The position numbers and the translations under genes were made by a program. Below, piece after piece: positions 38,581-45,122 of a stretch of DNA of 64,000 bases (within the stretch, counting starts at the first letter, position 1; the number at the start of each line of letters is the position of its first letter). The DNA lies in NCBI RefSeq assembly GCF_055900595.2, contig NZ_CM148325.1; one strand, written 5' to 3'. A model generated the notes under the pieces. That model worked only from the letters and a program-made list of their open reading frames with translations, did no database searches and had not been told where the DNA came from.

Positions 38581-38802
38581 ATGAAAATCATCACCCGTGG
38601 TGAAGCCATGCGTATTCACCAACAGCATCCTGCATCCCGTCTTTTTCCGTTCTGTACCGGCAAATACCGCTGGCACGGCAGCACTGAAACGTATACCGGT
38701 CGTGAAGTGCAGGATATTCCCGGTGTGCTGGCTGTGTTTGCAGAACGTCGTAAGGACAGTTTTGGCCCGTATGTCCGGCTGATGAGCGTCACCCTGAACT
38801 GA
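38581..38802 (+). CDS. DUF987-family small protein (YeeT/YkfH-like)
   Basis: 73 aa, MKIITRGEAMRIHQQHPASRLFPFCTGKYRWHGSTETYTGREVQDIPGV...; sits where yeeT/ykfH sits upstream of the toxin-antitoxin pair. Confidence 0.6.
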   Translation: MKIITRGEAMRIHQQHPASRLFPFCTGKYRWHGSTETYTGREVQDIPGVLAVFAERRKDSFGPYVRLMSVTLN

Positions 38803-38816
38803 GTCAGGGCATTCTG

Positions 38817-39449
38817 ATGAGCAGAATTATCACCATCACAGTGTATACGCTGGATGAACTTTCCTGCCCGGCACGGGAAAAAGCCCGCGACGGGTACCGT
38901 CAGCATCATGCTGACAGCAACTGGTATGAAAACGTGTATGAAGACTTCAGGGAGGTCTGTGGCATTTTCGGAATTGACCTCCGCCAGCGCGTTTTCCGGC
39001 TCAGCAACGGCAGGTTTATGGAGGAGCCGAGCATCTGGTTCAGCGGATTCTGCAGCCAGGGACGGAGCCTGTTTTGAAGGACGCTGGCACTGGCAGTCAG
39101 CAACAACCAGGAGAGTCCGGGAGTATGCCCCGCAGAACCGTGAGCTTCATCGTATCGCGGATGCCCTGCAGGCGGTGCAGAAACGTAACTTCTGGCAACT
39201 GCAGGCTGAAATCCACCACCGGGGACGTTACTGCCATCCGTTATCACTGTTACCCGGAACAGTCCGACTGGTCAGGCTATGACAGCCGATGCGGAAGCCG
39301 CTGTCAGCGAAGCCCTGCGCGACCTGGCCTTCTGGCTGTACCGTCAACTGGAAAACGAGTACGACCAGATGACCTCAGACGCCGCTGTGGATGAGGCCAT
39401 TCTCATCAATGCATACATCTTCACCGAAACCGGTCAGCGCACCGGCTGA
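38817..39449 (+). pseudogene. Hypothetical gene broken into three overlapping frames (apparent +1/-1 frameshift pair)
   Basis: Frame 0 MSRIITITVYTLDELSCPAREKARDGYRQHHADSNWYENVYEDF...FCSQG; frame +1 ...DGACFEGRWHWQSATTRRVREYAPQNRELHRIADALQAVQKRNFWQLQAEIHHRG...; frame 0 MTADAEAAVSEALRDLAFWLYRQLENEYDQMTSDAAVDEAILINAYIFTETGQRTG*. Confidence 0.4.
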
Positions 39450-39498
39450 CCTGTCATCGTTAAACCATTCTTAACCACTTTTCAGAGAGGATTTTATC

Positions 39499-39867
39499 GT
39501 GTCAGACACACTCTCCGGGATAACTCATCCCGACGACAATCACGACCGCCCCTGGTGGGGGCTTCCCTGCACAGTGAGGCCCTGTTTTGGCGCCCGTCTG
39601 GTGCAGGAGGGTAACCGCCTGCATTACCTTGCCGACCGCGCCGGCATCAGAGGCCGGTTCAGCGATGCGGATGCATACCATCTGGACCAGGCCTTTCCGC
39701 TGCTGATGAAACAACTGGAACTCATGCTCACCAGCGGTGAACTGAATCCCCGCCATCAGCATACCGTCACGCTGTATGCAAAAGGGCTGACCTGCGAAGC
39801 CGACACCCTCGGCAGTTGTGGTTACGTTTATCTGGCTGTTTATCCGACGCCCGAAACGAAAAAGTAA
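39499..39867 (+). CDS. cbeA: CbeA/YeeU-family type IV antitoxin
   Basis: 122 aa, MSDTLSGITHPDDNHDRPWWGLPCTVRPCFGARLVQEGNRLHYLADRAGIRG... Confidence 0.85.
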   Translation: MSDTLSGITHPDDNHDRPWWGLPCTVRPCFGARLVQEGNRLHYLADRAGIRGRFSDADAYHLDQAFPLLMKQLELMLTSGELNPRHQHTVTLYAKGLTCEADTLGSCGYVYLAVYPTPETKK

Positions 39868-39957: not shown

Positions 39958-40368
39958 ATGAAATTATTACCCGACACACATGTACGGGAGGCATCGTGCT
40001 GCCCGTCTCCCGTCACCATCTGGCAGACACTGCTCATCCGTCTGCTGGACCAGCACTATGGCCTCACACTGAATGACACACCGTTCGCTGATGAACGTGT
40101 GATTGAGCAGCATATTGAGGCCGGCATTTCACTGTGCGATGCGGTGAACTTTCTCGTTGAAAAATACGCACTGGTACGTACCGACCAGCCGGGATTCAGC
40201 GCAGGAGCCCCGTCGCAGTTAATCAACAGCATCGATATTCTCCGGGCCCGCCGGGCAACAGGCCTGATGACACGTAATAACTACAGAATGGTAAATAACA
40301 TTACCCTGGGTAGCATCCGGGGGCGAAACGATGAAACTTTCCCTGACGCTGGAAGCCGACAGCATTAA
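39958..40368 (+). CDS. cbtA: CbtA/YeeV-family type IV toxin
   Basis: [82 protein letters not shown]...; start taken at internal ATG 39958. Confidence 0.85.
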
Positions 40369-40753
40369 CGTGCAGGCACTGAACATGGGGCGCATTGTCG
40401 TTGACATTGATGGTGTAAATCTCGCTGAACTGATTAACAAGGTCGCTGAATACGGTTATTCACTCCGCGTGGTGGATGAACGTGACGCTACCGAAACACC
40501 GGCGACTTCTGCCAGCTCTCATCAGTTGCCGGAAGACAATACAGTGATACAGAGCGTGATGCCATTAACCACTGAAACAGCGCTGGATATCCTCATTGCG
40601 TGGCTGCAGGACAATATCGACTGCGGGTCCGGAATTATTTTCGACAACGATGAGGATAAAACGGATTCGGCAGCACTGCTGCCCTGTATTGAACAGGCCA
40701 GGGAGGATATCCGTACCCTGCACCAACTGCAACTTCTGCACCAGAACCGGTGA
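40331..40753 (+). CDS. YeeW-like protein downstream of the toxin gene
   Basis: 140-aa ORF overlapping the cbtA 3' end; assigned by position only. Confidence 0.45.
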
Positions 40754-40837: not shown

Positions 40838-41623
40838 ATGTCATATATCACAATCCCCCACCCGAACGCGGTCAACGGACATACAGCCGTTATCTGTTCC
40901 ACAAGTATCAGACACATCCTGGCTGTACGAAAGAGTACACTGCTGCAAATCGACACGCTTATCCGGCAACTGACAGAAATCTCAGCACTGACGGAAAGTA
41001 TTGGCGGTAAAGCCGCCCCGGACTGGGCGATGAAACAGAATTTTCGCTGTGGTTGCTGGCTGATGGAGAAACCAGAAACAGCAATGAAAGCCATTACCCG
41101 GAATCTTGACCGCGAAATCTGGCGTAACCTGATGCAGCGTTCCGGGATGCTTTCCTTAATGGATGCACAGGCACGTGATACATGGTACAGGTCACTGGAA
41201 TATGATAATTTTCCGGAAATCAGTGAAGCGAACATTCTGAGCACATTTGAACAACTGCACCAGAATAAGGATGAAGTGTTTGAGCGGGGGGTGATCAACC
41301 TCTTCAAAGGGCTGAGCTGGGATTACAAAACCAACTCACCCTGTAAATTTGGCAGTAAAATTATCGTCAACAATCTGGTGAGGTGGGACCAGTGGGGATT
41401 TCATCTTATCAGTGGAATGCAGGCAGATCGCCTGGCTGACCTGGAAAGAATGTTGCATCTGCTCAGCGGTAAACCGATCCCCGACAACCGGGGAATATCA
41501 CCATTAATCTGGATGACCACATACAGTCCGTTCAGGGTAAAGGACGCTATGAAGATGAGATGTTCATCATTAAATACTTTAAGAAGGGAGCTGCACACAT
41601 CACTTTCAAAAGGCTGGAGCTGA
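40838..41623 (+). CDS. DUF4942-like hypothetical protein
   Basis: 261-aa ORF; family assignment tentative, no search run. Confidence 0.45.
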   Translation: MSYITIPHPNAVNGHTAVICSTSIRHILAVRKSTLLQIDTLIRQLTEISALTESIGGKAAPDWAMKQNFRCGCWLMEKPETAMKAITRNLDREIWRNLMQRSGMLSLMDAQARDTWYRSLEYDNFPEISEANILSTFEQLHQNKDEVFERGVINLFKGLSWDYKTNSPCKFGSKIIVNNLVRWDQWGFHLISGMQADRLADLERMLHLLSGKPIPDNRGISPLIWMTTYSPFRVKDAMKMRCSSLNTLRRELHTSLSKGWS

Positions 41624-41848: not shown

Positions 41849-43207
41849 CGTTTCAGGACGCCATGTGATTTAAGCGTTCTGCCTTCAAATCATTTCTAAC
41901 AATCTCAACCAAATTTTCCCTAATCGCCAGCATGTTACGGGTATACCCCAGCTCTGGGAAATTTATCCCTAAGCTATGAATGACTCTCACGAAATGTCGT
42001 GCGGCTGCGTGATGCAGTTGAAAATCAAATGATGTCATCAAGAGCTTAACGGTATCGTTGCCGATGACATATATAAAGCACAACCTCGGGCAGAACGCCG
42101 ACTGATGAGATTTTCTGAATGAGAACAAAGAGTAATGTCTCAGTTCGTTTGCTCATGCAAAGACTAATAATCCATGAAAATAGTAAGTGCTCTGAGAAAT
42201 TTTCCATGGATTATTTTCTGAACATTTTTCTTTGGCAAAGATGATGAATTTTGATGATAAGGAATATTACTTCTGGTTCTCAGTAAACTCCTTTCGTAAT
42301 ACTATGTAATCAAGAAGTTTATGGCGGGTAAAAATAACGTCTTACATTCACCAACAATATGTAAATAAACCCATCTATAGATGGTAAAAATAGGTCATGG
42401 CAATTATCATTGAACCATTCCCTTTTCGAATGAGTTTCTATTATGCAACAACCTGTAGTTCGCGTTGGCGAATGGCTTGTTACTCCGTCCATAAACCAAA
42501 TTAGCCGCAATGGGCGTCAACTTACCCTTGAGCCGAGATTAATCGATCTTCTGGTTTTCTTTGCTCAACACAGTGGCGAAGTACTTAGCAGGGATGAACT
42601 TATCGATAATGTCTGGAAGAGAAGTATTGTCACCAATCACGTTGTGACGCAGAGTATCTCAGAACTACGTAAGTCATTAAAAGATAATGATGAAGATAGT
42701 CCTGTCTATATCGCTACTGTACCAAAGCGCGGCTATAAATTAATGGTGCCGGTTATCTGGTACAGCGAAGAAGAGGGAGAGGAAATAATGCTATCTTCGC
42801 CTCCCCCTATACCAGAGGCGGTTCCTGACACAGATTCTCCCTCCCAAAGTCTTAACATTCAAAACACCGCAACACCACCTGAACAATCCCCAGTTAAAAG
42901 CAAACGATTCACTACCTTTTGGGTATGGTTTTTTTTCCTGTTGTCGTTAGGTATCTGTGTAGCACTGGTAGCGTTTTCAAGTCTTGATACACGTCTTCCT
43001 ATGAGCAAATCGCGTATTTTGCTCAATCCACGCGATATTGACATTAATATGGTAAATAAAAGTTGTAACAGCTGGAGTTCCCCGTATCAGCTCTCTTACG
43101 CGATAGGCGTGGGTGATTTGGTGGCGACATCACTTAACACCTTCTCCACCTTGGTGATGCTGCCAACTTACTGATTTAGTGTATGATGGTGTTTTTGAGG
43201 TGCTCCA

Positions 43208-43483
43208 GTGGCTTCTGTTTCTATCAGCTGTCCCTCCTGTTCAGCTACTGACGGGGTGGTGCGTAACGGCAAAAGCACCGCCGGACATCAGCGCTATCTC
43301 TGCTCTCACTGCCGTAAAACATGGCAACTGCAGTTCACTTACACCGCTTCTCAACCCGGTACGCACCAGAAAATCATTGATATGGCCATGAATGGCGTTG
43401 GATGCCGGGCAACTGCCCGCATTATGGGCGTTGGCCTCAACACGATTTTACGTCACTTAAAAAACTCAGGCCGCAGTCGGTAA
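43208..43483 (+). CDS. insA: IS1 InsA
   Basis: [91 protein letters not shown]. Confidence 0.9.
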
Positions 43484-43905
43484 CCTCGCGCATACAGCCG
43501 GGCAGTGACGTCATCGTCTGTGCGGAAATGGACGAACAGTGGGGCTATGTCGGGGCTAAATCGCGCCAGCGCTGGCTGTTTTACGCGTATGACAGGCTCC
43601 GGAAGACGGTTGTTGCGCACGTATTCGGTGAACGCACTATGGCGACGCTGGGGCGTCTTATGAGCCTGCTGTCACCCTTTGACGTGGTGATATGGATGAC
43701 GGATGGCTGGCCGCTGTATGAATCCCGCCTGAAGGGAAAGCTGCACGTAATCAGCAAGCGATATACGCAGCGAATTGAGCGGCATAACCTGAATCTGAGG
43801 CAGCACCTGGCACGGCTGGGACGGAAGTCGCTGTCGTTCTCAAAATCGGTGGAGCTGCATGACAAAGTCATCGGGCATTATCTGAACATAAAACACTATC
43901 AATAA
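43402..43905 (+). CDS. insB: IS1 InsB frame (expressed as InsAB' by -1 frameshift)
   Basis: ...[71 protein letters not shown]... Confidence 0.8.
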
Positions 43906-45122
43906 GTTGGAGTCATTACCCTCCACCTTTATGGTGCATGACAAAATCAACTACAACATTGATGAACCGAGCAGTTCCGGTAAAACATTATCTATTGCGT
44001 TTGTTAATCAGCGCCAATACCGTGCTCAACAATGCTTTATGTCGGTAAAATTGGTAGACAATGCAGATGGTTCAACCATGCTGGATAAACGTTATGTCAT
44101 CACTAACGGTAATCAGCTGGCGATTCAAAATGATTTACTGGAGAGTTTATCAAAAGCGTTAAACCAACCGTGGCCACAACGAATGCAGGAGATGCTCCAG
44201 CAAATTTTGCCTCATCGTGGTGCGTTATTAACTAATTTTTATCAGGCACATGATTATTTACTGCATGGCGATGATAAATCATTGAACCGTGCCAGTGAAT
44301 TACTAGGTGAGATTGTTCAATCATCCCCCGAATTTACCTACGCGAGAGCAGAAAAAGCATTAGTTGATATCGTGCGCCATTCTCAACATCCTTTAGATGA
44401 AAAACAATTAGCAGCACTGAATACAGAAATAGATAACATTGTTACACTGCCGGAATTGAACAACCTGTCCATTATATATCAAATAAAAGCGGTCAGTGCT
44501 CTGGTAAAAGGTAAAACAGATGAGTCTTACCAGGCGATAAATACTGGCATTGATCTTGAAATGTCCTGGCTAAATTATGTGTTGCTTGGCAAGGTTTATG
44601 AAATGAAGGGGATGAACCGGGAAGCAGCTGATGCATATCTCACCGCCTTTAATTTACGCCCAGGGGCAAACACCCTTTACTGGATTGAAAATGGTATATT
44701 CCAGACTTCTGTTCCTTATGTTGTACCTTATCTCGACAAATTTCTCGCCTCAGAATAAGTGACTCCCGGGTTGACTCATGCTCGGGAATATTTGTTGTTG
44801 ATTTTTTGTATGTTATTGTTGGTATAATATGTTGCGGCAATTTATTTGCCGCATAATTTTTATCACATAAATTTAACCATGGAATATTCTGCAATCTATT
44901 GTAAACATTGAATGTTTATCTTTTCATGATATCAACTTGCGATCCTGATGTGTTAATAAAAAACCTCAAGTTCTCACTTACAGAAACTTTTGTGTTATTT
45001 CACCTAATCTTTAGGATTAATCTTTTTTTTTGAGTAATCTTGTCGCCAGTTTGGTCTGGTCAGTAAATAGTTACGCATCATGACCCGGACTCCAAATTCA
45101 AAAATGAAATTAGGAGAAGAGC

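What the first reader, a model, noticed from the sequence alone, without database searches (positions are those of the whole stretch)
38817..39449. Extra frameshifted ORF between the DUF987 gene and the CbeA/CbtA toxin-antitoxin pair
In the K-12 CP4 elements I recall (yeeT-yeeU-yeeV, ykfH-yafW-ykfI) the DUF987 gene is directly followed by the antitoxin gene. Here ~630 bp intervene, containing three overlapping reading frames (86 aa, ~75 aa, 56 aa) that read like one ~210-aa gene broken by compensating frameshifts. I cannot assign a family by eye. It is either a decaying extra cargo gene or a frameshift-regulated one.
Basis: seen in the sequence. Interest (0 to 1): 0.4.

Follow-up and report, generated by a model that had tools for sequence, protein, structure and literature searches.

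The report
Broken copy of island gene
The 633 bases between the DUF987 gene and the CbeA/CbtA toxin-antitoxin pair are a dead copy of a common 214-residue mobile-element gene of unknown function, broken by a 2-base and a 10-base deletion; this is ordinary gene decay and public annotation already flags it.

Summary
Window 38817-39449 (+) holds three overlapping reading frames that together spell one gene. Intact E. coli copies are 645 bp and 214 aa. Against them, the window lacks 2 bp in a G-run (GGGGG to GGG, 39059-39061) and 10 bp (ACAGCATGGA, between 39241 and 39242). The losses sum to 12 bp, so the frame returns. However, a TGA at 39075-39077 ends translation 14 nt after the first lesion, so no full-length protein can be made.

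The same double-deletion allele is present in about 34-39 of 5426 complete E. coli genomes, where RefSeq marks it "frameshifted". It is therefore a real, rare, lineage-specific pseudogene. It is neither a sequencing error nor a programmed frameshift.

The gene is not "extra". A full-length copy occupies this slot in about 1940 of 5426 E. coli genomes.

The family is named "antitoxin of toxin-antitoxin stability system" or "DUF8835" in RefSeq. It is large, occurs in conjugative elements, plasmids and phages, gives a confident predicted fold with no solved relative, and has no known function.

Neighbouring island genes in the window are also decayed.

The parts
38817..39061 (+). Pseudogene segment 1 (frame 0). 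It has the native start codon and codons 1-81 of the 214-aa protein, and ends in the shortened G-run (GGG at 39059-39061, GGGGG in intact copies).
   Evidence: Alignment A1; translations.
39075..39077 (+). The TGA that ends the only ORF with the native start (38817-39077, 86 aa). It lies 14 nt after the 2-bp deletion.
39062..39241 (+). Pseudogene segment 2 (frame +1). It is homologous to residues about 83-142 of the intact protein and is unreachable from the native start.
39241..39242 (+). Site of the 10-bp deletion. ACAGCATGGA, present in intact copies, is missing, which disrupts codons 143-146 (YSMD).
   Evidence: The junction 40-mer is found in 39 of 5426 E. coli genomes.
39242..39449 (+). 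Pseudogene segment 3 (back in frame 0). It is homologous to residues about 147-214 plus the stop codon, and contains the 56-aa ORF 39279-39449.
38581..38802 (+). Upstream neighbour, the DUF987 (YeeT-like) gene, intact.
39499..39867 (+). Downstream neighbour, the CbeA (YeeU-family) antitoxin gene, intact.
39958..40368 (+). CbtA toxin gene with an altered 3' end. It reads past the usual ATGA overlap at 40331. The same allele is annotated 'frameshifted' in close relatives.

Best explanation
This is a recently inactivated, lineage-specific pseudogene of a 214-aa gene, here called X. RefSeq names it 'antitoxin of toxin-antitoxin stability system' or 'DUF8835 domain-containing'. X is a regular member of the DUF932 / antirestriction / RadC / DUF987 / X / CbeA / CbtA module of CP4-like enterobacterial islands. 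Two deletions broke it. A 2-bp loss in a G5 homopolymer removes part of the family's most conserved motif (SQGDGA). A 10-bp loss lies 180 nt downstream. Translation from the native start stops after 86 codons, of which 81 are native, so no functional product is expected (inferred). The rest of this island, next to cadC, is decaying in the same way. Shown here: the lesions, their sharing by other genomes, and the intact homologues. Inferred: the loss of function, and the role of intact X as an accessory early or establishment gene of mobile elements.
For: Intact 645-bp, 214-aa copies sit in the same slot in Nissle 1917 and 17MR471. The identical 633-bp allele is annotated 'frameshifted' in independent complete genomes. 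The two junction-specific 40- and 41-mers occur in 34 and 39 of 5426 genomes, against 1942 genomes with a full-length match. Full-length 214-aa protein clusters hold thousands of member sequences. dN/dS is about 0.3 among E. coli alleles, including repaired window versus intact, so most divergence predates inactivation. Other loss states of the same slot exist: a 113-bp 3' remnant in O157:H7 and a 5' scar in K-12. In the closest relative, cbtA, DUF5983, DUF4942 and the integrase are also annotated as pseudogenes.
Against: No expression or read-level data are available. The two deletions sum to a multiple of three. A second allele (ACN002) pairs the same 10-bp deletion with a different 5-bp upstream deletion, total 15 bp, also a multiple of three. 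This could hint at selection to restore the frame. In both alleles, however, the shifted frame meets the same TGA, so nothing is restored. The 86-aa N-terminal and 56-aa C-terminal ORFs could still be translated, with unknown effect.
Confidence: 0.93

Rival explanations
1. Programmed or regulated frameshifting. The ribosome shifts +1 at the G-run and shifts back at about 39241, so a near full-length protein is made at a controlled level.
For: The two lesions restore the frame arithmetically. The middle segment remains open in frame +1. ACN002 also has a frame-restoring pair of deletions, 5 bp plus 10 bp.
Against: Most homologues, in E. coli and across about 3500 protein clusters at 50% identity, are single uninterrupted ORFs. 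The shift sites are plain deletions relative to them. The allele is in under 1% of E. coli genomes. The second site is not a homopolymer or repeat. The 2-bp lesion removes a residue of the invariant QGDG motif. Neighbouring genes in the same island are independently frameshifted.
Confidence: 0.02
2. Sequencing or assembly error in the window. The real gene is intact.
For: The first lesion is in a G homopolymer, a classic error site.
Against: The same 2-bp junction is present in 34 independent complete E. coli genomes and the same 10-bp junction in 39. The 10-bp loss is not in a homopolymer. The full 633-bp allele recurs at 98.6-98.9% identity without gaps.
Confidence: 0.02
3. A split gene whose pieces still work as separate small proteins: the 86-aa N-terminal fragment, a middle fragment and the 56-aa C-terminal fragment.
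For: ORF1 keeps the native start and upstream region. ORF3 starts at a native internal Met. Both are open. The allele persists in tens of genomes.
Against: The AlphaFold model is one compact domain in which strands and helices from all three segments alternate. The middle segment has no start near the junction; its only ORF begins at 38854 and has about 69 out-of-frame residues. The conserved SQGDGA motif is destroyed. No split version was seen among the homologues examined from other genera.
Confidence: 0.03

Closest known systems
RefSeq/PGAP pseudogene 'antitoxin of toxin-antitoxin stability system' / 'DUF8835 domain-containing protein', note 'frameshifted' (e.g. KZY06_RS26325 in PK8276, ACYX38_RS21225 in GPEC389, AC6IZY_RS22545 in 23CRST011)
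   Same: It has the same 633-bp allele with both deletions at 98.6-98.9% identity, and the same neighbours: DUF987 upstream and a YeeU-family antitoxin downstream.
   Different: A few point substitutions only; there are 7 against PK8276.
Intact 214-aa proteins WP_000094915.1 (E. coli Nissle 1917) and WP_065304415.1 (E. coli 17MR471)
   Same: They occupy the same slot between DUF987 and CbeA. The repaired window protein matches them at 194 and 197 of 214 residues.
   Different: They are uninterrupted 645-bp ORFs. The window lacks 2 + 10 bp.
K-12 CP4-44 yeeT-cbeA (and O157:H7 DUF987-antitoxin) spacers
   Same: Same island module and same slot.
   Different: The gene is almost wholly deleted there. 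K-12 keeps about 19 nt of the 5' end. O157:H7 keeps the last 113 bp, unannotated. The window keeps the whole gene body but in broken form.
CbeA/YeeU type IV antitoxin (PF06154)
   Same: It is adjacent and on the same strand. Natural in-frame X-CbeA fusions exist in E. coli. X shares the word 'antitoxin' in database names.
   Different: There is no sequence similarity: X has no Pfam hit even at E<=10. X is 214 aa with a different predicted fold. X also occurs without CbeA/CbtA in alphaproteobacterial ICEs and in phages.
PHROG 5162 (phage proteins of unknown function)
   Same: Full-length profile match, E 9e-35, residues 3-210. Phage homologues were found by tblastn and by fold search.
   Different: It carries no functional annotation, and the phage members are only 25-38% identical.

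Membership tests
X family ('antitoxin of toxin-antitoxin stability system' / DUF8835; about 214-aa mobile-element proteins) | Full-length sequence homology to the 214-aa family members | tested here: met
   The repaired window sequence matches E. coli members at 194-197 of 214 residues. The E. coli member finds 2618 clusters at 90% identity and 3572 clusters at 50% identity with E<=1e-3.
X family ('antitoxin of toxin-antitoxin stability system' / DUF8835; about 214-aa mobile-element proteins) | Match to the DUF8835 Pfam model itself | not testable with these tools
   The Pfam copy available returned no hit, and NCBIfam returned none. The DUF8835 name is taken from RefSeq product lines.
X family ('antitoxin of toxin-antitoxin stability system' / DUF8835; about 214-aa mobile-element proteins) | Uninterrupted ORF retaining the near-invariant G77-F78-x-x-Q81-G82-D83-G84-A85 motif | tested here: not met
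   The 2-bp deletion falls in the G82/D83 codons, and a stop follows at 39075-39077. The window copy is therefore a pseudogene of the family, not a functional member.
Toxin-antitoxin antitoxins (as the database name implies) | Homology to a known antitoxin family (Phd/YefM, RelB, CbeA and others) | tested here: not met
Toxin-antitoxin antitoxins (as the database name implies) | Obligate pairing with an adjacent toxin gene | tested here: inconclusive
   X was adjacent to cbeA/cbtA in all Enterobacteriaceae loci examined, in three gene orders. No CbeA or CbtA neighbour is present in the alphaproteobacterial ICE loci or in a phage-like contig. Many islands keep CbeA/CbtA without X.
Toxin-antitoxin antitoxins (as the database name implies) | Neutralisation of a toxin, shown experimentally | not testable with these tools
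   No paper on this family was found.
Programmed ribosomal frameshift genes | Frameshift conserved among homologues, with a slippery site | tested here: not met
   The shift is absent from intact homologues and is present in 34-39 of 5426 genomes only.

The most novel reading that the evidence does not exclude
The pseudogene itself is not novel, but the family it belongs to is a large, uncharacterised mobile-element family. It gives a confident AlphaFold fold with no solved relative, and its 'antitoxin' name failed every similarity test run here. In the Enterobacteriaceae loci examined it sits next to CbeA/CbtA in three different gene orders (X-A-T, A-X-T, A-A-X-T). In some E. coli it is fused in frame to CbeA. 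The most novel reading not excluded is that intact X is a functional third partner or modulator of the CbeA/CbtA type IV toxin-antitoxin module, or more broadly an early-expressed establishment or anti-defence factor of ICEs, plasmids and phages. On that reading, its repeated loss in E. coli islands reflects domestication of those islands.
Probability: 0.3. Interest if true: 0.5.

Novelty: already known. Interest (0 to 1): 0.12.

Why it matters
The window feature matters little. It is one more decayed gene in a decaying CP4-like island, and NCBI's pipeline already labels the same allele as frameshifted.

Three by-products are useful for annotation:
1. The K-12 arrangement of DUF987 directly followed by the antitoxin gene is a deletion state, not the ancestral layout.
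2. The product name "antitoxin of toxin-antitoxin stability system" failed every sequence and structure similarity test run here and should be read as "function unknown".
3. Intact members of this abundant family would be a reasonable target for functional work, because they accompany antirestriction genes in ICEs and lie near the ends of some large phage genomes.

Tried and rejected
Searches that gave nothing:
- Pfam, NCBIfam and PADLOC scans of the three fragments and of the intact protein gave no hits.
- A PDB sequence search gave only chance hits at E>=0.2.
- The AlphaFold database library was not available.
- BFVD gave only uncharacterised phage proteins.
- Literature searches found nothing on this family. 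Terms tried were the product name, DUF987 with CbtA, DUF8835, and yeeS/T/U/V.
- Pfam scans of unannotated neighbours of X in alphaproteobacterial and metagenomic loci gave no hits.

Readings considered and rejected:
- Programmed frameshift, sequencing error and a functional split gene are treated under the rival explanations.
- A DNA-mimic antirestriction protein of the ArdA/Ocr type has no support. The family is only mildly acidic, median pI 4.8, and no structural match was found.
- The paired frame-restoring deletions (2+10 bp here, 5+10 bp in ACN002) were considered as evidence of selection for frame restoration. This was rejected because the same TGA truncates both alleles.

Full report
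**1. The observation**

Window 38581-38802 encodes a DUF987 protein (PF06174, E 4e-39). Window 39499-39867 encodes a CbeA antitoxin (PF06154, E 8e-55). The ORF starting at 39958 encodes a CbtA toxin (PF06755, E 1e-59).

The 633 bases between DUF987 and CbeA (38817-39449) contain an 86-aa ORF in frame 0 (38817-39077) and a 56-aa ORF in frame 0 (39279-39449). A long open stretch in frame +1, part of ORF 38854-39282, bridges them.

**2. What it is**

A megablast of the 633 bp against 5426 complete E. coli genomes finds matches in 2827 genomes, and 1942 of them cover at least 80% of the query.

- The closest matches (98.6-98.9% identity, also 633 bp) are annotated by RefSeq as the pseudogene "antitoxin of toxin-antitoxin stability system", or "DUF8835 domain-containing" in newer annotation.
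- Slightly more distant copies (about 88-93% identity) are mostly 645 bp long. The two that were inspected are ordinary uninterrupted genes of 214 codons, for example WP_000094915.1 in Nissle 1917 and WP_065304415.1 in 17MR471. Both lie in exactly the same slot between DUF987 and the YeeU-family antitoxin.

Alignment shows that the window differs from these intact copies by exactly two deletions:

- Two bases are missing from a G5 run (GGGGG to GGG, window 39059-39061).
- Ten bases (ACAGCATGGA) are missing between 39241 and 39242.

Putting the 12 bases back yields a stop-free 214-aa protein that matches the intact proteins at 194-197 of 214 residues.

The frame map is therefore:

| Window coordinates | Frame | Residues of the intact protein |
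|---|---|---|
| 38817-39061 | 0 | 1-81 |
| 39062-39241 | +1 | about 83-142 |
| 39242-39449 | 0 | about 147-214 |

The second junction was placed about 35-40 bp too far downstream.

**3. Is it an error, a regulated frameshift, or decay?**

A 41-mer across the 2-bp junction occurs in 34 complete E. coli genomes. A 40-mer across the 10-bp junction occurs in 39. The allele is therefore real and inherited, not an artefact of this assembly. It is also rare, present in under 1% of genomes against about 36% that carry a full-length copy.

The deletions sum to 12 bp, but this does not rescue the protein. After the 2-bp loss, frame 0 reads GRSLF and then meets TGA at 39075-39077. The 2-bp loss also falls in the G82/D83 codons of the family's best-conserved motif, SGFxSQGDGAxF.

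Strain ACN002 carries the same 10-bp deletion with a different 5-bp deletion upstream and an intact G5 run. Its 3' half is identical to the window and its 5' half is divergent. This suggests that the 10-bp lesion is the older one and that island copies recombine. The 5-bp shift runs into the same TGA.

Pairwise dN/dS is about 0.3 among E. coli alleles, whether or not the window copy is included. Inactivation is therefore recent relative to allele divergence.

In the closest relative, GPEC389, which is 98.9% identical over 10 kb, cbtA, DUF5983 and DUF4942 are also annotated as frameshifted or partial. The integrase is a fragment. The whole island next to cadC is eroding. All of this points to ordinary pseudogenisation.

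**4. The slot in other islands**

The gene is not an "extra" insertion.

- O157:H7-type islands keep only its last 113 bp, unannotated, directly after the DUF987 stop.
- In K-12 CP4-44, the 73-bp yeeT-cbeA spacer begins with the first ~19 nt of this gene (ATGAGCAGAATTATC...). It then jumps to the sequence downstream of the gene's stop. The equivalent of window 38836-39463 is absent.

The same gene has been lost repeatedly and in different ways.

**5. The family**

The intact protein finds 2618 clusters at 90% identity and 3572 clusters at 50% identity with E<=1e-3.

- It is about 60% identical to 214-aa proteins of Salmonella, Klebsiella and Citrobacter, and also to proteins of alphaproteobacteria such as Mesorhizobium, Tistrella, Afipia and Stappia.
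- It has homologues on 112 plasmids, mostly from Rhodobacteraceae.
- It has homologues in 61 phage genomes, including jumbo phages, where it often lies in terminal-repeat regions.
- It matches PHROG 5162, of unknown function, at E 9e-35.
- It matches nothing in the available Pfam copy, NCBIfam, PADLOC or PDB sequences.

I found no publication on the family. No sequence, profile or structure comparison run here linked the family to a known antitoxin. In phage K64-1 the homologue itself is labelled "YeeU-like antitoxin". My inference is that the name spread from adjacency to, or fusion with, CbeA.

**6. Context and the likely role of the intact gene (inferred)**

In alphaproteobacterial ICEs the gene lies among ArdC, DUF2958, a large ParB-like protein, DUF736, DUF4326, an AAA_34 helicase, Toprim, and the relaxase and coupling protein. 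No CbeA or CbtA is nearby.

In Enterobacteriaceae it follows DUF932, the antirestriction gene, RadC and DUF987, and was adjacent to the toxin-antitoxin pair in every locus examined. The order varies:

| Organism | Order |
|---|---|
| E. coli, Citrobacter | X-CbeA-CbtA |
| Klebsiella michiganensis | CbeA-X-CbtA |
| Salmonella | CbeA-CbeA-X-CbtA |

In 29 of 5426 E. coli genomes, a stop-loss (TGA to TTA) plus a 34-bp deletion fuses X in frame to CbeA, giving a 343-aa protein.

The best-supported general statement is that intact X is an accessory gene of mobile elements, co-located with antirestriction and establishment genes. A specific link to CbeA/CbtA is possible but unproven. It is not required for that pair, because many islands keep the pair without X.

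**7. Verdict**

The feature is real and is correctly described as a broken gene. It is a rare, recently formed pseudogene allele of a common but uncharacterised mobile-element gene, and public annotation already flags it. Interest is low. The family itself is a modest lead, as an abundant protein with a misleading name and an unsolved fold.

Noticed in passing
window 43153-43920 (flanks 42443-43174 and 43907-44758): A 768-bp IS1 element (transposase PF03400, E 2e-78) is inserted in cadC with a 9-bp target duplication. It splits cadC into an N-terminal ORF (Trans_reg_C + CadC_C1) and a C-terminal ORF. The closest E. coli relatives have an intact cadC. From my own knowledge, silencing of the cad locus is a classic pathoadaptive change of Shigella and enteroinvasive E. 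coli, so the window may come from such a strain.
   Followed up: partly
window 39958-40368: The cbtA toxin gene lacks bases near its 3' end compared with intact copies. It reads past the usual ATGA overlap at 40331 to a stop at 40368, giving 136 aa with an altered tail. The same allele is annotated 'frameshifted' in GPEC389 and 23CRST011.
   Followed up: partly
window 40331-40753: A single 140-aa ORF joins a DUF5983 N-terminal domain (residues 4-57) in frame to what relatives annotate as a separate DUF957 gene. This is an internal deletion of the DUF5983 gene. In relatives, DUF4942 (40838-41623 here) is annotated as frameshifted and only an integrase fragment follows.
   Followed up: partly
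L020:2501-3532 (E. coli GCA_001911485.1); junction L020:3131-3172: Natural in-frame fusion of gene X to CbeA (343 aa), made by TGA to TTA plus a 34-bp deletion of the spacer. The junction is present in 29 of 5426 complete E. coli genomes. There are at least 15 protein clusters of 342-343 aa.
   Followed up: yes
L012:5610-6996 (Klebsiella michiganensis), L017:4287-6084 (Salmonella enterica): In these genera gene X lies between the CbeA antitoxin gene(s) and the CbtA toxin gene, directly upstream of the toxin. In E. coli and Citrobacter it lies upstream of the antitoxin. Salmonella has two tandem CbeA genes.
   Followed up: partly
L010:1540-1612 (K-12 MG1655 yeeT-cbeA spacer); L005:2001-2113 (O157:H7): Unannotated relics of gene X. 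K-12 CP4-44 keeps about 19 nt of its 5' end. O157:H7 keeps its last 113 bp immediately after the DUF987 stop.
   Followed up: yes
P0040, P0061, P0079 and P0001 (E. coli proteins): Other E. coli alleles of gene X carry their own frame-restoring frameshift pairs; stretches of the predicted proteins are out-of-frame translations. One carries an internal duplication of the first ~70 codons (P0001, 283 aa). The gene is damaged in several independent ways.
   Followed up: no
phage records (e.g. Caulobacter phages CcrPW, CcrSC, BL47; Klebsiella phage fENko-Kae01): Phage homologues of gene X often lie inside annotated terminal repeats of large lytic phage genomes and so occur twice per genome. This fits an early-expressed function.
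   Followed up: no
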